Part shown: positions 950-30,064 of the stretch, in pieces
How positions within the stretch are numbered: the stretch's first letter is position 1
Layout of the letters: every line of letters starts with the position of its first letter
From: an uncultured Clostridia bacterium
Lineage (GTDB): Bacteria; Bacillota; Clostridia; TANB77; CAG-508
Assembly: GCA_934157035.1 (NCBI GenBank)
Contig: CAKPHG010000001.1
Location: forward strand, 137,342-201,341
Length of the DNA: 64,000 bases
Direction: 5' to 3'
Made by a program: the position numbers and the translations under genes
The notes under the pieces: generated by a model
What the model saw: the letters and a program-made list of their open reading frames with translations, nothing else
What the model was told of the DNA's origin: nothing
Databases searched by the model: none

Positions 950-1200
950 TTTCTCTTACCTCCTTAGAAATATTATTCACAATTAATACCAATATATTCA
1001 TAAGTTCTCTCTTGTTTTTTCTTTTCATTTGTGCTATTATAATTTTGTACATAAGCTACTCGTGACTATTTTTTTAATTTATTGGGGTATCGCCAAGCTG
1101 ATGTGGCTGTTCGAACGTATGTGAGTTACAGCATCAGTATGCAGCGAGCAAAGCGAGTCGCTGGTAAGTAAAGCTACTCGTGACTATTTTTTAAATTTAT

Positions 1201-1275
1201 TGGGGTATCGCCAAGCGGTAAGGCATCGGACTCTGACTCCGACATTCCTGTGTTCGAATCACAGTACCCCAGCCA
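1201..1275 (+). tRNA. tRNA-Gln, anticodon CTG
   Basis: GGGGTATCGCCAAGCGGTAAGGCATCGGACTCTGACTCCGACATTCCTGTGTTCGAATCACAGTACCCCAGCCA folds as a cloverleaf. The acceptor stem is TGGGGTA/TACCCCA, the anticodon stem is TCGGA/TCCGA with loop CTCTGAC (anticodon CTG), the T-loop is GTTCGAATC, and there is a 3' CCA. Confidence 0.85.
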
Positions 1276-22375: not shown

Positions 22376-22543
22376 TTATCTTTCTTCTCTTTCAATTTTT
22401 CCGTTTGCTAACACTCCATACTTTCCAATTAATTTTTTATCTACAATTACATTTTTAGGTAATTTTTCCCCATATAATGGTGAACTTGTTTTCTCAGCTT
22501 TTAAGGTCATAAACTTCAATCCTTCTTTAAATAAATTACTCAT
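22376..22543 (-). CDS. Small ORF (55 aa, MSNLFKEGLKFMTLKAEK...) between the T-box terminator and valS. It may be a leader or a small protein.
   Basis: It has an ATG and an RBS (GGAGAGAAATATG). Its stop codon overlaps the valS RBS. It is not in the 60-aa-or-longer track. Confidence 0.3.
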   Translation of the reverse strand: MSNLFKEGLKFMTLKAEKTSSPLYGEKLPKNVIVDKKLIGKYGVLANGKIEREER

Positions 22544-22599: not shown

Positions 22600-22857
22600 C
22601 AAACAAAAAGCTCACCCTAATAATAAGGGTGAGCTTAAAATTTCTCACGGTACCACCTTAATTTATAAATAATTTTATTATTTATATCTTAGCTACAGTT
22701 AACGCCTGTTAAACGAGAATAACTACTATTATTTCACTATTCTAACAAAAAAGCTACCTTCTGTTTTCTTTTCTATAAGAAGCTTTCAGCGCAATCACTT
22801 CTTTTCTCTTTTCTAGTAAGTTAAAACATACTCCTCTTTTTTCTTGTTTTTCAATAT
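22600..22857 (-). promoter_or_regulatory. T-box riboswitch leader of valS
   Basis: The minus-strand sequence AATTAAGGTGGTACCGTGAGA (plus 22644-22663) matches the T-box consensus. The terminator hairpin AAGCTCACCC...GGGTGAGCTT plus a T-tract lies at 22605-22637. A promoter (TTGCAT-17-TATAAT) lies at about 22865-22893. Confidence 0.8.
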
Positions 22858-23002
22858 GTATTATATTATACAATACCTTTATGTTTTATGCAACTATTTT
22901 TATATAATTATTTTTACAAAACAATTATATTTTATTTTTAAAATAGGGAGCAAATAAAATGCTCCCTATTATCTTTCTCTTTGAATTTTTTCTACTGTCA
23001 GA

Positions 23003-23779
23003 TTATTCTTCTAACTTCAAGTTCTCTACTTTTTGCATTCGAATTACCGAAATTTCATAAGCTTCTCTAAATTCTCCGGCTTCTGAATTTGGTGAATACC
23101 TTTTGAAATACTCTCTGCTTTGAACTCTACCATAAAGTTTTATCCGATTTCCAATTTCAAGTTCACTTACCCATTGAGCAACTCGACCCCATGCAATACA
23201 TGGAATATAATCTGACTTTTTATACGGTCTGTTTACTGCAATAAGCAAATCTGTTATGTATCTTCCTGAAGGTGTGTTTCTGAATACCGGCTGTTTGCAA
23301 AGGTATCCCTCAAGATAGACTAAATTAGCATTTGTAGTTTCTTCAAGTTCACCTTCATCTTCATAGATGTTAATTGCCGTTGCAAATAAAAATAGCTCTA
23401 AATGATTACGACCATCTTCTCCTTTTTTATTATATGATCTGAACTGTCCCGCTACTTCTACCCATTTACCTTTGAGTAAGTTTTTCATTCTTTCTCGTCC
23501 TATTAGTAAATCAGATACAACTATTGGAACAAAATCTTCTGTTCCACTTAATCTTTCTACTATTACTCTTGTTCGATAGAATTTCTCCCACATTACTTCG
23601 TGACTGTACTCAAATTCAGCCTCAATTCTGCCACTAATAAACACTTTGTTAAATTCGCCAAAAAGTTTTTCAACAGTTGAAATTTCCTCCATTCTTGTTA
23701 TGACATTGTTTTCCCGTCTTACTACAGTTTCATCTGACATTGTACTTTCCTCCTGCTTATTTTTTTGCTTATAGCACAT
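23003..23779 (-). CDS. Single-stranded DNA-binding protein with two tandem OB folds (258 aa)
   Basis: The second half, LVYLEGYLCKQPVFRNTPSGRYITDLLIAVNRPYKK...IPCIAWGRVAQWVSE...LYGRVQSREY, matches bacterial SSB. The first half is a second SSB-like OB fold. GC content and codon usage are atypical (CGA, CCG). It is flanked by hairpin terminators at about 22940-22970 and 23925-23965. Confidence 0.65.
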   Translation of the reverse strand: MCYKQKNKQEESTMSDETVVRRENNVITRMEEISTVEKLFGEFNKVFISGRIEAEFEYSHEVMWEKFYRTRVIVERLSGTEDFVPIVVSDLLIGRERMKNLLKGKWVEVAGQFRSYNKKGEDGRNHLELFLFATAINIYEDEGELEETTNANLVYLEGYLCKQPVFRNTPSGRYITDLLIAVNRPYKKSDYIPCIAWGRVAQWVSELEIGNRIKLYGRVQSREYFKRYSPNSEAGEFREAYEISVIRMQKVENLKLEE

Positions 23780-23986
23780 TCAGTAGAAAAATCATTCTAA
23801 ATTACTTACATACAAAAATTCTGTGTATGTGTTTGAATCAAGAAATAAATTCTTCATCTTTATATATATAAACAATATAGTTATTATATCACTGTTTTAC
23901 ATTTTTGTAAAGTTATGTAAATAGTAAAAACTCCACCAGATACATCTAGTGGAGTTTTTACTCAATACCAAGATTGCAATATTACA

Positions 23987-25267
23987 TCATTGGGTAAAGT
24001 CTGAGAAATTTTCAATTTCACTCTCAAACATAATAATTTTCTGCAATTCTGAAAGAAAAGTCAAAAGTTTTACTTTTTTACCACTTTCATATTTTTGCAC
24101 AAAATCATTGACAAATTTTGAGAAAGTCATACGAACTGTCATTGTCTGTTCAATAGGAATATTAGTCTCTATAAAAATAATATCAAAAGCTATTCTTTCC
24201 TTTTTCACAGCTGTACTTGCGATTTCAACAATTTGTTCCTGCTCTTTTACAGTCATCTTGTTTAATCCCATTGCTTCCAAGACATAACGGATTCGTTTCT
24301 CAACAGGCTGTGTTTTATCAACACTTGCTAATGTTTCCTCAAAATCTCTAATTTCTGGCATACATTCCATTTTTACTCTTGGTTTAGTAATGGTTTTTCC
24401 ATCATCAAACTCGTCAATTTTTTCTTTAACATTCGTCGTCTCTTCTATTTCCTGTTTATTGGAGTTTTCTTCCGTAGAATGATCTTCTACCCCTTTAAAC
24501 GAGTACTCTTTATACTGTTTAGTTACATTTAGAAACGACAATATTGTTATTGAATATTCCTTTAGTCTTTCGGAAACTTGCTTACTAGACCAAACTTTGT
24601 CCCACTGTGTATAGAAAACTTTTTTGTTTTTTAGAGCATTTTCTAATTCTTTCCATGTAATCTTATCAACTTTCGTAGATATGATTACCAAATTCGTGAA
24701 AAAATCTTCCCTTTGACCCATTTCTAACCATTCTGACACTAATTTTGCAAAATTTTCAAAAGAAGTTGCTATTTTTGCAATTTCTTCTAATTTTGGAATG
24801 TTTATAGTTGTCAAACCTCGGTTTATTTTTTTAGGCTGCACCTTTTTTTGTAGTTCAGTCTGCTTGAAACTTTTACTTTCTGCATTCGCCTGTTCAGCTT
24901 TTTCACTCTTTGCATTCGCCTGTTCAGCTTGTTCAGATTTTTCACTCTCTGCATTTGTCTGTTCAGTCTCTTCGGAATCTTCTCCTCCTACATTTCCATA
25001 TTCATAGTCATTTTCTGTGTCAACCTGTATTTTTTCATCTTCTTCGTACCCTTTCAAGTTCTTTCCGTAGTTCAATTCAATGACTTCACAATGGCTTATT
25101 GCATCAATAATTGCCATAGGAGGCTGCCGAAAAACAATTTCAAGTTTTGCCTCTTTACCTCTTACCACAATACTACTTTCAGGATTAAAATCCTGAAAAA
25201 ACGCTCTAATTAAGTATTCTGCATTTTTATCCTGCTTAATCCTTACCTTTGCCCAAAACTTACTCAT
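23987..25267 (-). CDS. Hypothetical protein with an internal acidic tandem-repeat linker (426 aa)
   Basis: It is an ORF in the track. The DNA has a tandem repeat at about 24870-24960 encoding SEKAEQANA units. There are no recognisable catalytic motifs. It shares the same-strand, higher-GC block with the SSB gene. Confidence 0.45.
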   Translation of the reverse strand: MSKFWAKVRIKQDKNAEYLIRAFFQDFNPESSIVVRGKEAKLEIVFRQPPMAIIDAISHCEVIELNYGKNLKGYEEDEKIQVDTENDYEYGNVGGEDSEETEQTNAESEKSEQAEQANAKSEKAEQANAESKSFKQTELQKKVQPKKINRGLTTINIPKLEEIAKIATSFENFAKLVSEWLEMGQREDFFTNLVIISTKVDKITWKELENALKNKKVFYTQWDKVWSSKQVSERLKEYSITILSFLNVTKQYKEYSFKGVEDHSTEENSNKQEIEETTNVKEKIDEFDDGKTITKPRVKMECMPEIRDFEETLASVDKTQPVEKRIRYVLEAMGLNKMTVKEQEQIVEIASTAVKKERIAFDIIFIETNIPIEQTMTVRMTFSKFVNDFVQKYESGKKVKLLTFLSELQKIIMFESEIENFSDFTQ

Positions 25268-25462
25268 TGTGTTTCTCCTTTCATTGCTAAAAAGTTTAAT
25301 AGGTATAGATTTATCTTGATATTTCCATTTTTTTGATATTTAGCAAATTAAAGAATTGCTAATATACATAAATACCTTGGAAATATTCCAACACAGCTTA
25401 TATTATACTACTATTTTACATAATTTGCAACACAAAGAAGAAAGATAACTATATTGATATAG

Positions 25463-26353
25463 TTATCTTTCTTCTTTGTCCATTATTGATTGTAATTCCT
25501 TTTTGTTTCTTTCTAATTCTGGGTTTATACTAATAATATCCTTTAATTGTTTTATTATTTCTTGTTCATCTTTTTCTTCTTTTGCTATAGCTATTAGTTG
25601 TTCTCTAATTTCAATACTATCAGGAAATTTATCCAGTGCTTCATAAGCCCATAATTTTGCATCATCTAAATTTTTCATATTTTTTTCAATATGTACTAAC
25701 TGTCTATATGCAGTATAGTTACCTGTTTCTTCTATTAATTTTTCCAACTCTTCTATTGCTTCACTGATTCTTCCTGATTTAAAATACGCAAAAGCTAACA
25801 AATTTCTTTTTCCTTGTGCTTTTTGTGGGTTAGCTACAATTTCAGATTTATATCTATTTATTGTTTCTTCATAATCCGGTTTTATATTCTTCTGTTTGAC
25901 TTCTTTATGTTGTTCTTTAATTGGTTTTTTCTTATATTTTGTTGCTCTTTTTTTTCTAATATTGCTACTTTTTCTTTTTGGTATTTGTACATTTAGTTCT
26001 TCTAAGATCTTATCAATACTGCTTGAAAATCCCAACCTTTTTCTTTCTTCTTCTATCTCTAATAAATCTTCTTTATTAACAGTTGTTCTATTTATATATG
26101 AATTTAATTTTAATAGAATTGCTCTTTCTATACTATTATTATCTGTTGTTTCTATAAAATCGTTTAATTTATCTATTGCCTCTGCTACTTTTCCATTTTC
26201 TATTGATTCTTTTGCAAATCGTCTAAGTTCTAGCCTTTCTTTATATTCTTGTAACTTTTCAATAGATATATCTAATTCAAAAGATAATAATTCTAAATCA
26301 AATCCATTATTAATTAATCTTATTATTTCTTCTACTTCGTTTAGTCTTATCAT
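25463..26353 (-). CDS. TPR-like repeat protein
   Basis: It is 296 aa and helical-repeat rich (AYFKSGRISEAIEELEK..., AYRQLVHIEKNMKNLDDAKLWAYEALDKFP). Confidence 0.5.
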   Translation of the reverse strand: MIRLNEVEEIIRLINNGFDLELLSFELDISIEKLQEYKERLELRRFAKESIENGKVAEAIDKLNDFIETTDNNSIERAILLKLNSYINRTTVNKEDLLEIEEERKRLGFSSSIDKILEELNVQIPKRKSSNIRKKRATKYKKKPIKEQHKEVKQKNIKPDYEETINRYKSEIVANPQKAQGKRNLLAFAYFKSGRISEAIEELEKLIEETGNYTAYRQLVHIEKNMKNLDDAKLWAYEALDKFPDSIEIREQLIAIAKEEKDEQEIIKQLKDIISINPELERNKKELQSIMDKEER

Positions 26354-27555: not shown

Positions 27556-27810
27556 AGAATTTTTCTCCTTTTTTCTTTATTTTTTCACTATTATATTATT
27601 ATTTTTTTATGTAAATGTCAATATTTTTAAAGAAAAATGTAGCAAATTATACTATGAAATTTAATTACTTTTAATCTCTTCTATTAGTAATCTTCTTATT
27701 TTAATAATATCTGAAAAAACTAAATTTTTATATCCTTTTTCCACTAGTTTTAGTATTTTTAAGCACAAAAATAGAGGCTAATTATTTTATAAATTAGCCC
27801 CTATAATAAT

Positions 27811-27906
27811 TTGTTCATTAGACTTTATTTTATTTGCTCTCTAATTAGCAAAACTTATTTGTTCATTAGACTTTATTTTATTTGCTCTCTAATTAGCAAA
27901 ACCTAT
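27811..27906. repeat. Two tandem direct copies of a 48-bp unit, each with an internal palindrome (TTGCT-N8-AGCAA)
   Basis: TTGTTCATTAGACTTTATTTTATTTGCTCTCTAATTAGCAAAAC[T/C]TAT occurs at 27811-27858 and 27859-27906, with one mismatch between copies. Confidence 0.8.
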
Positions 27907-27996
27907 TTGTTATAAATAATACTAACATATAGCAATAACATTGTCAATATTATTACTAATATATTTTATGTAAATTTTTAAAAATTATTACATCTT

Positions 27997-30064
27997 TTAA
28001 ATTTCAATTCTATCTGTAAATTTCTTACTAACTAATACTTTTAATGGTTTATTTTTTTCAAGTTCTAATTTTGGATCTTCTTGTTCAATTTTTATTGCTA
28101 GGCTTTGTACCATTTTTAATGTAGGCATATCTTCAAACAAATTTGCTATTTTAAGTTCTGGAAGTCCATGTTGCCTTGTTCCAAAAAATTCTCCACTTCC
28201 TCTTAATTCTAAATCTTTTTCTGCAATAACAAATCCATCATTTGTTTCTTGCATAGTTTTCATTCTTTGCCTTACTACATCAGACTTGCTATCATATTTT
28301 AAGATACAATAAGACTTATATTCTCCACGTCCTACTCTTCCTCTTAGTTGGTGAAGCTGTGCTAAACCAAATCTTTCCGCATTTTCAACTACCATTATAC
28401 TTGCATTAGGTACATTTACACCTACTTCTATAACTGTTGTTGAAATAAGTATATCTATGTTTCCATCTTTAAATTCCTGCATAATAGCATCTTTTTCTTT
28501 TGGTCTCATTTTTCCATGAAGATATTCTACTCTATAATTTTTAAATATTTCATTTTTGTATTTTTCTGTAAGCTCTAACACTGCTTTTGCATCTATTTCT
28601 TCTGTTTCTTCTACTAATGGGCAAACAACATACACTTGTCTTCCTTCATCTATTTGTTTTTTTATAAAATTATTAATTCTTTCTTCCATAGTTTTTGTAA
28701 CTGCATACGTATCTATTTTCTTTCTATTTGGTGGAAGTTCATCTATTATAGATATATCTAAGTCACCATATAAAATTAATGCTAGTGTTCTTGGAATTGG
28801 AGTTGCTGTCATAACTAATACATCTGGATTTTCTCCTTTTTTACTTATAGTAGCTCTTTGCCTTACTCCAAAACGATGTTGTTCATCTGTTACAACTAAA
28901 CCCAAATTTTTAAATACTACATTTTCTTCTAATAAAGCATGCGTTCCAATTAATACATCTATTTCTCCATTTTTTAACTTTTCTAAAATCTCTTCTTTTT
29001 TCTTTTTAGTAACACTACCTATTAGTAATTCGCACTTTATTTTATATTTTTCTAATATCTCATTAAATGATTCTAAATGTTGACTTGCAAGTATTGCTGT
29101 TGGTGCCATTATTGCTACTTGATATCCACATTTTACTGCTTTATAAGCTGCACACATTGCAACAACAGTTTTTCCGTGAACCAACATCCCCTTGAAGAAG
29201 TCTATTCATAGCTTTTTCATTTTCCATGTCATTATCTATTTCTTCTAAAACTTTTAATTGTGCCTTTGTTAATCTAAATGGCAATTCATTTATTACTGTA
29301 CACATTTTTATATCTTTACTAAAACTAATACCCTTTTCTTCATTTGTGTAACTGTTTTTTAAACTCATTAATGCTAATTGCATAGAAAGTAATTCTTCAA
29401 AAACTAGACGTTTTCTTGCTTTTTCAAATTCTGTAAAATCTTTTGGAAAGTGAATTTGATTAATTGCTGTATTTACATCTTCTAATTTATATTCTTGCAT
29501 TATATAATCAGGAAGAGTTTCTTCTAATAATTTTTCTTGATTTACTACCTTTAAACCATTTTCCATAACTTGTCTTATTGTTGTTTGGTATAAACCAAAT
29601 GTTGCTGGGTAAAGTGGTATAATTTTTCCCGTATTTTTATTTGTCTCTTCACTATCGTAAACAGGCGAATTCATTTCTATCTTTCCATATTTAATAGATA
29701 CTTTTCCATAAAATTTATATTTTTGTCCTAATATAAATTTGTTTTTTAAATAACTTTGATTAAACCACGTAAGAAGGCAAGTTCCTGTTTCATCCCTAAC
29801 TATTAGTTTATAAATAGCCATATTTTTACGAATTCGTTGTTCACTCATTCTGCTTACTACCATTGCTTCTATTAGTGCTTCTTCTCCATCTGTTAAAGAA
29901 GCTATCATTTTTGGTTTGCTTCTATCTTCGTAATCTCTTGGAAAATATGTAATTAAATCTTCTAAAGTATTTATTCCTAATTTATTCAAAAGTTTTGCTC
30001 TGTTTGGACCTACTCCTTTTATAAATTGAATTTTTTTTTCTAATTCTTGCATTTTTATCTCCAT
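27997..30064 (-). pseudogene. recG: ATP-dependent DNA helicase RecG, split by a +1 frameshift in Walker A
   Basis: The N-terminal ORF (30064..29141) ends ...LLQGDVGS-RKNCCCN. The C-terminal ORF reads HGKTVVAMCAAYKAV..., containing the DEQHRFGV helicase motifs. The expected sequence is GDVGSGKTVVA. An extra C lies at plus-strand position about 29176 (TCA-C-GGA-AAA-ACT). Confidence 0.8.

What the first reader, a model, noticed from the sequence alone, without database searches (positions are those of the whole stretch)
22990..25300. Higher-GC two-gene module: tandem-OB-fold SSB plus an acidic-repeat protein, bracketed by terminators
The region has visibly higher GC and different codon usage (CGA, CCG, CGG) from its surroundings. 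It encodes two proteins:
- A 426-aa protein with an N-terminal domain, a Glu/Gln/Ala/Ser/Lys repeat linker (encoded by a DNA tandem repeat) and a roughly 270-aa C-terminal domain of unknown function.
- An SSB of 258 aa with two OB folds in one polypeptide, unlike the usual 110-170-aa Firmicute SSBs.

Both ends have hairpin terminators, and there is no integrase or replication gene.

This could be a horizontally acquired ssDNA-handling module: a recombination, anti-defence or defence function.
Basis: partly seen in the sequence, partly recalled or inferred. Interest (0 to 1): 0.55.

Follow-up and report, generated by a model that had tools for sequence, protein, structure and literature searches.

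The report
Tandem-OB ssDNA protein plus orphan partner

Summary
Two minus-strand genes, p426 (23987-25267) and a tandem-OB protein (23003-23740; 245 aa from the likely start, not 258), each have their own sigma-70-type promoter, a ~130-nt leader and a terminator hairpin. A 39-bp repeat encodes the acidic linker. Their GC3 (0.27, 0.24) ranks 2nd and 3rd of 56 ORFs.

The "SSB" belongs to a described family, NF004476/PRK05813 (EndoTT, TtePriB, PDB 4GS3). p426 is an orphan: three confidently folded domains, no sequence-family match and no significant fold match.

A recent island is not supported. Five strains share the locus. More than 20 related species carry p426 beside a 458-aa gene (p458), often with a TPR gene, and the tandem-OB gene lies between p426 and p458 in a subclade.

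The GC3 excess recurs in nearly all of these species, even at 25% protein identity. The flanking cluster genes and highly expressed genes stay at ~0.12. A non-stationary substitution model finds no decay.

The locus does exchange alleles. One 4.3-kb block is 98% identical between genomes whose neighbouring genes are ~70% identical, and the tandem-OB gene alone was replaced in one of them. Within-species diversity is several-fold to ten-fold above most flanking genes.

Function is inferred only: an ssDNA-handling accessory pair. A conflict or defence role remains possible.

The parts
25463..26353 (-). TPR-repeat protein gene (296 aa). It is the upstream member of the conserved cluster. Its first ~42 aa form a domain shared with the 458-aa protein (p458) found downstream in relatives.
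   Evidence: Pfam TPR_14/TPR_19. Found upstream of p426 in most relatives. The N-terminal domain matches p458 at 64% over 42 aa. GC3 is 0.118, i.e. background.
25432..25479 (-). Terminator-like 23-nt perfect hairpin at the end of the TPR gene. It abuts the -35 box of the p426 promoter.
   Evidence: Inverted repeat I1, 100% complementary. A hairpin is present at this position in all relatives in the upstream alignment.
25402..25430 (-). p426 promoter: TTGCAA, 17-nt spacer, TATAAT.
   Evidence: Promoter scan, 10 of 12 matches. Nearly invariant across 16 species. The spacer shares the motif ATGTAAAAyAGT with the SSB promoter.
25268..25401 (-). Conserved ~130-nt 5' leader of p426 with two hairpins (TTGGAA/TTCCAA and TAGCAA/TTGCTA) and a possible long-range stem.
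   Evidence: Promoter plus leader is 77-91% identical to the window across species, against 62-84% for the CDS. RNAalifold predicts 23 pairs, 3 of them with compensatory changes, and a weak energy of -9.8 kcal/mol. No Rfam family matches.
25058..25267 (-). p426 N-terminal domain (aa 1-70): beta-alpha-beta-beta-alpha-beta, ferredoxin-like.
   Evidence: AlphaFold pLDDT 93-96. Only generic ferredoxin-fold matches, E about 0.07.
24806..25051 (-). p426 acidic disordered linker 1 (aa 73-154, pI 4.4). It contains the 39-bp tandem repeat at 24891-24966. Length and repeat number vary between strains and species. Most orthologues carry an AT-hook-like K/R-GRP motif here; the window copy is degenerate (KKINRGL).
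   Evidence: pLDDT below 50. TRF. pI. Alignment A1. L009 has about 17 copies of a 13-aa unit plus PKKKRGRP. Protein lengths of 416, 426 and 429 aa occur among strains.
24500..24805 (-). p426 middle helical domain (aa 155-256, six helices).
   Evidence: pLDDT 90-97. Conserved motifs IPELxEIAKKxxSFExF and KIxWKE. No significant Pfam, PDB or BFVD match.
24374..24499 (-). p426 acidic disordered linker 2 (aa 257-298, pI 4.6).
   Evidence: pLDDT 41-49. pI.
24032..24373 (-). p426 C-terminal helical domain (aa 299-412).
   Evidence: pLDDT 91-98. Conserved motifs KMxCMPEI, VDKTxPIEERV and FSxFINDFV.
23987..24031 (-). p426 acidic C-terminal tail MFESEIENFSDFTQ plus the stop codon.
   Evidence: pI 4.05, 4 acidic and 0 basic residues. 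The motif ExEIExFxDF recurs in close homologues.
23923..23962 (-). Terminator hairpin after p426.
   Evidence: Inverted repeat I3, 19 nt, 95% complementary, followed by a T run. Conserved in relatives.
23883..23911 (-). Promoter of the tandem-OB gene: TTTACA, 17-nt spacer, TG-extended TATAAT.
   Evidence: Best promoter-like site in the scanned region, 11 of 12 matches with TG. Conserved in 12 species.
23741..23882 (-). Conserved ~140-nt 5' leader of the tandem-OB gene, with hairpins AAGAA/TTCTT and ACATACA/TGTATGT.
   Evidence: Promoter plus leader is 75-94% identical to the window, against 69-86% for the CDS. Sequence.
23003..23740 (-). Tandem-OB ssDNA-binding protein gene of the NF004476/PRK05813 family (EndoTT/TtePriB type), 245 aa. 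OB1 is aa 31-126 (nt 23363-23650). OB2 is aa 139-237 (nt 23030-23326). The EndoTT-type motif GNRIKLYGRVQSREY is aa 197-211 (nt 23108-23152). There is no acidic SSB C-terminal tip.
   Evidence: NCBIfam 238 bits against a cutoff of 171. phrog_26861 at 1e-32. PDB 4GS3 at E=6e-15. AlphaFold and Foldseek. Motif compared with PMC2887958; invariant G197, G204, Q207, S208 and R209.
22942..22970 (-). Terminator hairpin after the tandem-OB gene. It marks the end of the module.
   Evidence: Terminator scan reports it on the + strand: 11 pairs, 5 of them G-C. Read on the - strand, it is followed by a T run.
22622..22853 (-). T-box leader of valS. This is context only. In relatives this position is occupied by the 458-aa cluster gene p458.
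   Evidence: Rfam RF00230, 94.2 bits. p458 is absent from the window.

Best explanation
What it is. The region holds two separately transcribed chromosomal genes. They belong to a fast-evolving cluster specific to a lineage of uncultured, spore-forming, ~27%-GC gut Clostridia. The cluster order is TPR protein, p426, tandem-OB protein (in some species only), then p458.

Shown:
- The tandem-OB protein is a member of the NF004476/PRK05813 family. That family's Thermoanaerobacter member has been described both as an ssDNA-specific endonuclease (EndoTT) and as "PriB" (TtePriB, PDB 4GS3).
- It folds as two OB barrels packed as an intramolecular pseudo-dimer.
- It keeps the residues reported as needed for EndoTT cleavage and binding.
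- It lacks the acidic C-terminal tip that canonical SSBs use to recruit partners.
- p426 is an orphan protein. It has a ferredoxin-like N-terminal domain, two helical domains without detectable relatives, two acidic disordered linkers of variable repeat number (with an AT-hook in most orthologues) and an acidic, Phe-containing tail.

Inferred mechanism:
- The tandem-OB protein binds, and possibly nicks, ssDNA intermediates.
- p426 acts as its adaptor, and the adaptor of p458. Its AT-hook and helical domains would tether it to AT-rich duplex DNA.
- Its acidic linkers and tail would supply in trans the kind of acidic, SSB-tail-like element that the tandem-OB protein lacks, contacting the basic OB2 domain (pI 9.5).
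- Both genes are controlled through conserved promoters and ~130-nt leaders.

Origin and composition:
- The pair is inherited with the cluster, but alleles are swapped between lineages by homologous replacement.
- Its GC-richer, non-optimal codon usage is a maintained property of these genes, not a leftover of recent import. The force that maintains it was not identified.
For: Family membership and fold. EndoTT motif: (PMC2887958). TtePriB description: (PMC12614216).

p426 architecture and orphan status. The family is limited to 266 clusters at 50% identity.

Synteny:
- TPR-p426-(SSB)-p458 in 18 genome loci.
- p426-SSB adjacency at 51-52% p426 identity in L021 and L023.
- p426-p458 adjacency at 25-32% identity.

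Same locus in five strains.

Co-divergence: p426 and p458 divergences are correlated (Spearman 0.80).

Codon usage:
- GC3 excess in every relative, with normal GC3 in TPR and p458.
- Pooled codon shift, for example CAG 0.10 in the background against 0.71 in p426 and 0.56 in the tandem-OB gene.
- The unalignable linkers are as GC3-rich as the folded domains.
- Maximum-likelihood equilibrium GC3 is 0.31, about equal to current and root values. An equilibrium of 0.13 is rejected (2dlnL=48).
- Within the species, polarised changes are S>W 20 against W>S 21.
- Highly expressed genes have GC3 0.10-0.13 and no CAG.

Regulation: leaders are more conserved than the coding sequence.

Allele exchange. 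Local diversity several-fold to ten-fold above most flanks.
Against: - No experiment or homology links p426 to the tandem-OB protein physically. Seven to nine relatives have p426-p458 with no SSB between them, so p426 does not need an adjacent SSB.
- The AT-hook is degenerate in this window's copy.
- EndoTT nuclease activity was shown only in vitro, at high protein:DNA ratios, for a 39%-identical thermophile protein.
- The "PriB" name could not be checked, because that paper is not held.
- The substitution model also overestimates the flank equilibrium (0.22 against an observed ~0.13). The stationarity result is therefore suggestive, not exact. The difference between pair and flank equilibria is only modestly significant (LRT about 5.4).
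- In L021, and partly in L017 and L018, the GC3 excess is small.
- The interaction between the acidic tail and OB2 is pure inference.
Confidence: 0.5

Rival explanations
1. Conflict or defence system. The cluster would be an unrecognised anti-phage or anti-mobile-element system (or a counter-defence). The tandem-OB protein would be the ssDNA-targeting effector (an EndoTT-like nuclease), and the TPR, p458 and p426 proteins would act as sensors or adaptors. It would evolve under diversifying selection and spread by allele exchange.
For: - The proteins evolve fast: dN/dS is 0.2-0.57 between species, and pN/pS is 0.7 for the tandem-OB gene within the species.
- Local nucleotide diversity is several-fold to ten-fold above most flanks.
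- A 4.3-kb block is 98% identical between genomes whose neighbours are ~70% identical. The SSB gene alone was also replaced.
- The cluster sits in at least six different genomic contexts. Xre-type regulators and a MazF toxin lie nearby in some.
- The residues linked to EndoTT nuclease activity are conserved.
- Tandem-OB homologues occur in gut phages.
Against: - No PADLOC model matches any of the four proteins.
- The cluster is present in every relative examined, in contrast to the patchy presence usual for defence genes.
- The promoters are of the sigma-70 housekeeping type.
- No NTPase, known nuclease or other typical effector domain is present apart from the OB folds.
- p426 is absent from the phage collections searched.
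- The neighbours in this window are housekeeping and sporulation genes.
Confidence: 0.2
2. Housekeeping replication-restart or recombination factor. The tandem-OB protein would be the Clostridial functional analogue of PriB, working with PriA. p426 and p458 would be lineage-specific primosome or mediator partners, playing a DnaT- or DnaD-like role.
For: - The closest solved structure was deposited as PriB (4GS3).
- Like PriB, the protein has no acidic tail.
- The PRK05813 family is widespread in Clostridia chromosomes.
- Phage homologues sit in replication and recombination modules.
- The promoters are of the sigma-70 type.
Against: - The proteobacterial PriB model scores 20 bits against a cutoff of 72.
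- Essential replication factors do not normally show pN/pS of 0.7, allele replacement and a variable location.
- The tandem-OB gene is missing from the cluster in 7-9 relatives.
- p426 shows no similarity to DnaT, DnaD or DnaB.
Confidence: 0.15
3. Recent horizontally acquired island. The two genes would have arrived together from a GC-richer donor, and their composition would be the un-ameliorated donor signature.
For: - GC3 and codon usage are outliers in the window.
- Each gene carries its own promoter and terminator.
- Tandem-OB homologues exist in phages.
- Inter-lineage transfer of the block is documented elsewhere.
Against: - Five strains have the same locus.
- The orthologous cluster, with the same anomaly, occurs across the lineage down to 25% identity.
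- No net GC decay is seen.
- There is no integrase, flanking repeat or tRNA target.
- Genes of the same exchanged block (p458) have background composition.
Confidence: 0.07
4. Domesticated remnant of a phage replication module. The tandem-OB gene would have been captured from a phage into a pre-existing p426-p458 cluster and retained.
For: - The tandem-OB gene is present only in a subclade, inserted between p426 and p458.
- There is a full-length match to phrog_26861, and gut-phage homologues are 42-47% identical.
- The phage homologues are also GC3 outliers in their own genomes.
Against: - The score against the chromosomal equivalog model NF004476 is well above its cutoff.
- No other phage gene lies nearby.
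- This origin would not explain the GC3 of p426, which has no phage relatives.
Confidence: 0.08

Closest known systems
EndoTT / TtePriB (Tte0829, Thermoanaerobacter tengcongensis; PRK05813 = NCBIfam NF004476; PDB 4GS3 is the N-terminal OB)
   Same: - Same curated family: 238 bits against a cutoff of 171.
- Two consecutive OB folds in one chain of about 220-245 aa.
- OB1 is 39% identical to 4GS3, rmsd 1.7 A.
- The motif G-x-R-x4-G-R-VQSREY in OB2 is conserved.
- There is no acidic C-terminal tip.
   Different: - The window protein has a ~28-residue N-terminal extension predicted as two short helices at low confidence.
- D171 of EndoTT is Asn here.
- It comes from a mesophilic gut organism.
- It lies next to p426, which has no counterpart beside the one distant PRK05813 gene examined (L029, a gene split into two ORFs).
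- Neither activity (nuclease, primosome) has been tested for this protein.
Deinococcus-Thermus two-OB SSBs (PDB 2FXQ, 2IHF, 2CWA, 1SE8, 3UDG)
   Same: Best whole-chain structural matches (Foldseek E=3e-16 to 5e-14, TM 0.63-0.78). They share the tandem OB arrangement acting as a built-in dimer.
   Different: - Only 18-22% identical.
- Those proteins are the cell's main SSB and keep a flexible tail with the acidic tip.
- They belong to a different NCBIfam family.
Phage tandem-OB SSBs (phrog_26861; Dulem virus 39, Enterocloster phage PMBT24)
   Same: - Full-length homology at 31-47% identity.
- They are also GC3 outliers within their genomes.
   Different: They are encoded inside phage replication and recombination modules, next to DnaB, primase, RecJ-like, RecT and PolIII alpha genes. 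The window gene is chromosomal, monocistronic and has no phage neighbours.
E. coli PriB with DnaT (replication-restart primosome)
   Same: An OB-fold ssDNA binder without an acidic tail, working with a partner protein of no enzymatic domain. This is an analogy only.
   Different: - PriB is a homodimer of single-OB chains.
- The PriB model is not matched: 20 bits against a cutoff of 72.
- p426 has no similarity to DnaT.
Canonical bacterial SSB with its intrinsically disordered linker and acidic tip (SsbA, SsbB, EcoSSB)
   Same: OB2 matches the Pfam SSB model (7e-16). The acidic disordered linkers and the acidic, Phe-containing tail of p426 resemble in character the SSB linker and tip.
   Different: - The score is below the TIGR00621 cutoff: 33.6 against 53.95.
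- The oligomeric logic differs.
- The tail-like elements are on a separate protein. This resemblance was noted by eye and is a lead, not a test.

Membership tests
NF004476 / PRK05813 tandem-OB ssDNA-binding proteins (EndoTT, TtePriB) | Score above the curated NCBIfam cutoff over the full model | tested here: met
   238.3 bits against a cutoff of 171. Model positions 7-210 of 219 are matched.
NF004476 / PRK05813 tandem-OB ssDNA-binding proteins (EndoTT, TtePriB) | Two consecutive OB folds in one polypeptide | tested here: met
   AlphaFold model with pTM 0.79, OB1 31-126 and OB2 139-237. Foldseek matches two-OB SSBs over about 220 columns.
NF004476 / PRK05813 tandem-OB ssDNA-binding proteins (EndoTT, TtePriB) | N-terminal OB homologous to the solved TtePriB N-domain (4GS3) | tested here: met
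   phmmer E=6.2e-15. Foldseek 39% identity, rmsd 1.7 A, TM 0.89.
NF004476 / PRK05813 tandem-OB ssDNA-binding proteins (EndoTT, TtePriB) | EndoTT residues G170, R172 and G177 (cleavage) and R178 (binding) in the motif GDRIRLWGRVQSREY | tested here: met
   The window has GNRIKLYGRVQSREY. G197, G204, Q207, S208 and R209 are invariant in 33 homologues. The motif is taken from PMC2887958. D171 is Asn here.
NF004476 / PRK05813 tandem-OB ssDNA-binding proteins (EndoTT, TtePriB) | ssDNA binding and ssDNA-specific endonuclease activity | not testable with these tools
   This needs purified protein.
Canonical bacterial SSB (TIGR00621) | Score above the family cutoff | tested here: not met
   33.6 bits against a cutoff of 53.95.
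Canonical bacterial SSB (TIGR00621) | Disordered C-terminal linker ending in an acidic tip (D-D-D-I-P-F type) | tested here: not met
   The protein ends ...MQKVENLKLEE directly after OB2.
Proteobacterial PriB (TIGR04418) | Score above the cutoff, and a single-OB homodimer architecture | tested here: not met
   20.4 bits against a cutoff of 72. The protein has two OB folds in one chain.
Proteobacterial PriB (TIGR04418) | Functional partnership with PriA and DnaT in replication restart | not testable with these tools
   There is no priA or dnaT context in the window. The paper that named TtePriB is not held.
Known anti-phage defence systems (PADLOC-DB 2.0) | Any component matching a defence-system model | tested here: not met
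   No hit for the tandem-OB protein, p426, TPR or p458 at E<=0.01.
Recently acquired genomic island | Atypical composition relative to the host | tested here: met
   GC3 z-scores of 3.1 and 4.0, and among the worst codon fits in the window: worst and third worst of 56 ORFs.
Recently acquired genomic island | Absent from close relatives, or present at a variable site within the species | tested here: not met
   Same locus in strains L025-L028. The orthologous cluster occurs in more than 20 related species.
Recently acquired genomic island | Mobility genes, flanking direct repeats or a tRNA target site | tested here: not met
   There is no integrase or transposase within about 10 kb. No flanking repeats were found.
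Recently acquired genomic island | Composition relaxing toward the host value (amelioration) | tested here: not met
   Maximum-likelihood equilibrium GC3 is 0.31, about the current value, and 0.13 is rejected at 2dlnL=48. Within-species changes are S>W 20 against W>S 21. Caveat: the model overestimates the flank equilibrium.
Any curated protein family, for p426 | Match to Pfam, NCBIfam, PHROGs, PADLOC, PDB sequences, or PDB/BFVD folds | tested here: not met
   Only generic ferredoxin-like fold matches (E about 0.07) were found, for the N-terminal domain.

The most novel reading that the evidence does not exclude
The cluster TPR-p426-tandem-OB-p458 would be a previously unrecognised genetic-conflict system of gut Clostridia. 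It would target ssDNA: entering conjugative or transforming strands, or replication intermediates of ssDNA or rolling-circle phages.

Its alleles would sweep between species. Its two core genes would be held at a non-optimal, GC-richer codon usage as part of their control, for example through dependence on rare-codon tRNAs such as the tRNA-Gln(CUG) encoded at 1201-1275, or through escape of their mRNAs from binding by their own ssDNA/RNA-binding product. The conserved 130-nt leaders would provide post-transcriptional regulation.
Probability: 0.12. Interest if true: 0.75.

Novelty: new variant of a known kind. Interest (0 to 1): 0.42.

Why it matters
The tandem-OB protein adds little on its own. 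It is one more member of a family already described biochemically and structurally. Three results matter more.

1. The PRK05813 family's cellular role is still unsettled (nuclease or PriB). Here a member is tied to a conserved orphan partner cluster, which gives a concrete set of candidate interactors to test.

2. Two adjacent genes hold GC3 near 0.3 in genomes whose other genes sit at 0.12. They do so across species whose proteins have diverged to 25% identity, while other genes of the same exchanged block do not. Atypical composition is routinely read as evidence of recent horizontal transfer, and this is a clear counter-example to that reading. Phage copies of the same family show the same excess, which points to a property of the gene itself.

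3. The locus combines vertical persistence with inter-species allele exchange and raised diversity. That pattern is usually linked to conflict genes, so it is a reasonable candidate for experimental screening in gut Clostridia.

Tried and rejected
- **Profile searches for p426.** The profile of 46 p426 homologues against PDB sequences gave nothing below E=0.4. Pfam scans of all 46 members found no family shared by more than one member.
- **p426 in viruses.** tblastn against 50,697 phage records gave no match.
- **Wider PRK05813 sampling.** Using the 4GS3 fragment as query returned only 26 short fragments. Two context look-ups were of limited use: L029 shows a split gene next to a ParA-like gene, and L030 is a low-coverage contig.
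- **Parsimony polarisation of GC3 changes.** The three-agreeing-taxa and majority-rule versions were clearly biased in the AT-rich flanks, where W>S exceeded S>W three- to five-fold. I replaced them with a maximum-likelihood two-state non-stationary model.
- **Saturation test.** I first assumed synonymous sites were saturated across the 18 species. NG86 showed dS of only 0.2-0.9 in the core clade, so the amelioration argument had to rest on the substitution model and on the very distant homologues.
- **Global MAFFT alignment of L001 and L003.** It suggested unrelated flanks. ORF clustering and blastn showed the upstream flank is syntenic but only ~70% identical.
- **High-expression explanation for GC3.** Rejected. 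GAPDH, L21 and MreB have GC3 0.10-0.13 and no CAG.
- **Flanking repeats.** The search for repeats marking a mobile element found none.
- **TtePriB paper.** It is not in the library.

Full report
**1. What is in the sequence**

The window is a ~27%-GC Firmicute chromosome with almost all genes on the minus strand. Read in the direction of transcription, the region contains the following.

- A TPR-repeat gene (25463-26353), ended by a 23-nt perfect hairpin (25432-25479).
- A TTGCAA-17-TATAAT promoter (25402-25430), a ~130-nt leader and the 426-aa ORF "p426" (23987-25267), followed by a hairpin (23923-23962).
- A TTTACA-17-TG-TATAAT promoter (23883-23911), a ~140-nt leader, the tandem-OB gene, and a hairpin (22942-22970).
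- The T-box leader (RF00230, 22622-22853) and valS.

The 258-aa ORF is the maximal reading. An AGGAGG precedes the ATG at 23740, and all homologues start MSDET (245-246 aa). The protein is therefore most likely 245 aa.

TRF confirms the 39-bp repeat (24891-24966, 1.9 copies) that encodes the acidic linker.

Neighbouring genes are recG, an aldose epimerase and spoIVA on one side, and valS, spoIIAA-spoIIAB-sigF and spoIID on the other. The host is therefore a spore-forming Clostridium-like organism. Its nearest named relative is the human-gut MAG "Clostridium sp. 28_17".

**2. Composition**

In 1-kb windows the region (GC 0.32) is not exceptional. At gene level it is.

- GC3 is 0.269 for p426 and 0.239 for the tandem-OB gene, against a mean of 0.137 (sd 0.04) for 56 ORFs. 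These are ranks 2 and 3.
- Fit to the window's synonymous-codon usage is worst and third worst of 56 ORFs.
- The adjacent TPR gene is ordinary (0.118).
- p426 alone holds 16 of the 47 CAG codons in the 56 ORFs.
- This is not the codon set of highly expressed genes. GAPDH, ribosomal protein L21 and MreB have GC3 0.10-0.13 and no CAG.

**3. The tandem-OB protein is a known kind**

- It scores 238 bits on NCBIfam NF004476 (PRK05813; cutoff 171). It falls below the cutoffs of canonical SSB and proteobacterial PriB models.
[quoted passage not shown] Its second OB matches SsbA-type OB domains.
- The AlphaFold model (pLDDT 82.8, pTM 0.79) shows two packed OB barrels. Its best structural matches are the two-OB SSBs of Thermus and Deinococcus.
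- Zhang et al. (PMC2887958) characterised the same family's Tte0829 as EndoTT, an ssDNA-specific endonuclease in vitro. In the motif GDRIRLWGRVQSREY, G170, R172 and G177 were needed for cleavage and D171 and R178 for binding.
- The window protein has GNRIKLYGRVQSREY. The glycines and the QSR residues are invariant in 33 homologues.
- A later paper notes that TtePriB has two consecutive OB folds and that the full-length heterodimer-like arrangement is unproven (PMC12614216).
- The protein has no acidic C-terminal tip.
- Full-length homologues (31-47% identity; phrog_26861) occur in gut phages, where they sit in replication and recombination modules.

**4. p426 is an orphan**

- It has no hit in Pfam, NCBIfam, PHROGs or PADLOC, including when all 46 aligned homologues are scanned.
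- An exhaustive phmmer search finds 266 clusters at 50% identity, all with the same architecture.
- AlphaFold (pLDDT above 90 in the folded parts) gives three domains:
  - a ferredoxin-like N-terminal domain (aa 1-70);
  - a six-helix middle domain (158-254);
  - a six-helix C-terminal domain (307-412).
- Two acidic disordered linkers separate the domains, and the protein ends in an acidic tail, MFESEIENFSDFTQ.
- Foldseek finds nothing significant in PDB or BFVD.
- Linker 1 is hypervariable. Strains have 416, 426 or 429 aa, and one species has about 17 copies of a 13-aa unit. In most orthologues it carries an AT-hook-like K/R-GRP motif, which is degenerate in this window.

**5. Relatives: a conserved cluster, not a two-gene island**

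In 18 species-level genome loci the order is TPR, p426, tandem-OB (present in only some), then a 458-aa protein (p458). The first ~42 residues of p458 are homologous to the N-terminus of the TPR protein.

- The tandem-OB gene lies between p426 and p458 in the closer species, and also in L021 and L023 (p426 51-52% identical). It is absent there in 7-9 others.
- p426-p458 adjacency holds even at 25-32% identity.
- p458 is absent from this window. valS follows instead.
- Five strains of the window's species (98.4-99.9% DNA identity) have exactly the same arrangement.
- Across species, the cluster sits in at least six different genomic contexts.
- No integrase or flanking repeats are seen.

**6. 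The codon anomaly is a conserved property of the two genes**

In nearly every relative, p426 (GC3 0.20-0.37) and the tandem-OB gene (0.23-0.36) stand above a background of 0.11-0.18. TPR and p458 in the same cluster do not. L021 is the main exception (0.165 and 0.18).

- Pooled over species, Gln CAG rises from 0.10 to 0.71 in p426 and 0.56 in the tandem-OB gene. Ile ATA falls from 0.60 to 0.23 and 0.33. Leu TTA falls from 0.64 to 0.36.
- The unalignable, fast-turnover linkers are at least as GC3-rich as the folded domains (0.306 against 0.279).
- Synonymous divergence in the core clade is only 0.2-0.9, so conservation alone does not exclude slow amelioration.
- Parsimony counts were biased in the AT-rich flanks, so I fitted a two-state non-stationary model to independent species triples.
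  - For the pair, the equilibrium GC3 is 0.31, and root estimates equal present values. An equilibrium of 0.13 is rejected (2dlnL=48).
  - The flanks give 0.22 against an observed ~0.13. The model therefore overestimates, and the difference between pair and flanks is only modestly significant (about 5.4).
- Within the species, polarised changes in the pair are balanced: S>W 20, W>S 21.
- Together with the 25-32%-identity homologues that keep GC3 of 0.28-0.32, this argues for a maintained state, not a fading import.
- The phage homologues are also GC3 outliers in their genomes: 0.385 against 0.09-0.23 in Enterocloster phage PMBT24, and 0.51 against 0.29-0.44 in Dulem virus 39.
- A dedicated tRNA-Gln(CUG) is encoded at 1201-1275.

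I could not identify the force that maintains the state.

**7. Regulation**

- The promoter and leader of p426 are 77-91% identical to the window across species whose coding sequences are 62-84% identical (47-76% at third positions). The tandem-OB leader behaves the same way.
- RNAalifold proposes two hairpins and a long-range stem. Three pairs show compensatory changes, but the energy is weak.
- No Rfam family matches.
- The two promoters share a spacer motif, ATGTAAAAyAGT, which suggests common control.

**8. Evolutionary dynamics**

- All four cluster proteins evolve fast, with dN/dS of 0.08-0.57.
- Within the species, TPR, p426 and the tandem-OB gene differ by 0.9-2.4%. Most flanking genes differ by 0-0.3%; spoIIAB reaches 0.8% and recG 0.6% in one comparison.
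- pN/pS is about 0.7 for the tandem-OB gene.
- Between L001 and L003, a single 4.3-kb block runs from the p426 promoter to the end of p458.
  - It is about 98% identical in p426 and p458.
  - The syntenic upstream genes are only 64-72% identical.
  - Inside the block the tandem-OB gene alone is 15% diverged (dS 0.81 against 0.03-0.04).
- Chimeric metagenome assembly is a caveat. If the assemblies are sound, this shows recent inter-species exchange of the block and separate replacement of the tandem-OB allele, presumably by homologous recombination within the cluster.

**9. Interpretation**

Shown:
- a PRK05813-type tandem-OB protein;
- an orphan, multi-domain acidic partner;
- a conserved cluster;
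- a conserved codon anomaly;
- conserved leaders;
- allele exchange.

Inferred:
- The pair handles ssDNA.
- p426 acts as an adaptor whose acidic linkers and tail substitute for the tail that this SSB-like protein lacks.

The fast evolution, exchange and variable location fit a conflict or defence role about as well as they fit a dispensable accessory role in DNA repair. No known defence model matches. The recent-island reading is largely refuted for this genome.

**10. Verdict**

Novelty is moderate: a known protein family in a new, uncharacterised partnership, with an unexplained and persistent compositional signature.

Noticed in passing
window 1053-1275 (+): A tRNA-Gln with anticodon CUG (1201-1275) lies alone on the plus strand. 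CAG is only about 10% of Gln codons in this genome. About 45 nt, made up of the upstream sequence and the first 17 nt of the tRNA, are duplicated at 1053-1097. About 75 nt of unrelated, GC-richer sequence separate the two copies, as if something had inserted or recombined at the 5' end of the gene.
   Followed up: partly
window 27997-30064 (-); also L025, L027, L028: recG is read as two overlapping ORFs: 307 aa (303 aa as called in the strains) with the wedge domain, and 396 aa with the helicase domains. They overlap by about 47 nt. The same split occurs in every strain of the species. It is therefore either a real split or frameshifted gene, or a programmed frameshift, not a sequencing error.
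   Followed up: partly
window 22376-22543 (-): A 55-aa ORF lies between the T-box terminator and valS. Its stop codon overlaps the valS ribosome-binding site. It is called as a gene in all strains and has no Pfam match.
   Followed up: no
window 36154-36516 (-): A 120-aa ORF has the highest GC3 in the window (0.306), no Pfam match and an acidic SDSEEEEE tail. It lies next to tRNA-Tyr and tRNA-Met. It is another compositional outlier of unknown function.
   Followed up: partly
window about 27556-27996, compared with L025-L028: The window strain lacks a 408-bp segment between recG and the aldose-epimerase gene. The other four strain contigs carry it, where it is called as a 173-aa ORF with no Pfam match. 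A 48-nt tandem repeat (2.1 copies, window 27809-27911) lies beside the breakpoint.
   Followed up: partly
L025 4178-5067 and L026 1900-2789: In two strains of the same species the TPR gene of the cluster is split into 185-aa and 94-aa ORFs. This suggests it is dispensable or decaying there. L001 lacks the TPR gene altogether.
   Followed up: no
L001 9818-14102 and L003 9818-14097: A 4.3-kb block (p426 promoter to the end of p458) is about 98% identical between two species whose syntenic upstream genes are 64-72% identical. Inside the block, the tandem-OB gene is 15% diverged. This points to recent inter-species exchange plus a separate single-gene replacement. Assembly chimerism has not been excluded.
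   Followed up: yes
L020 5962-6741 (Enterocloster phage PMBT24); L019 5986-6612 (Dulem virus 39): The phage homologues of the tandem-OB protein are GC3 outliers in their own genomes: 0.385 against 0.09-0.23, and 0.51 against 0.29-0.44. They mirror the chromosomal anomaly.
   Followed up: partly
window 25268-25430 and 23741-23911 (-): The promoters of p426 and the tandem-OB gene share a spacer motif, ATGTAAAAyAGT. Both have ~130-140-nt leaders that are more conserved across species than the coding regions. They may be an undescribed cis-regulatory element or operator. No Rfam family matches.
   Followed up: partly
L009 1892-3727: One orthologue of p426 has expanded the acidic linker to about 17 tandem copies of a 13-aa unit (SENSEQTEQEVAK). 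This gives a maximal ORF of 611 aa, or about 570 aa from the conserved MSKFW start. 29 of the 30 linker Gln codons are CAG.
   Followed up: no
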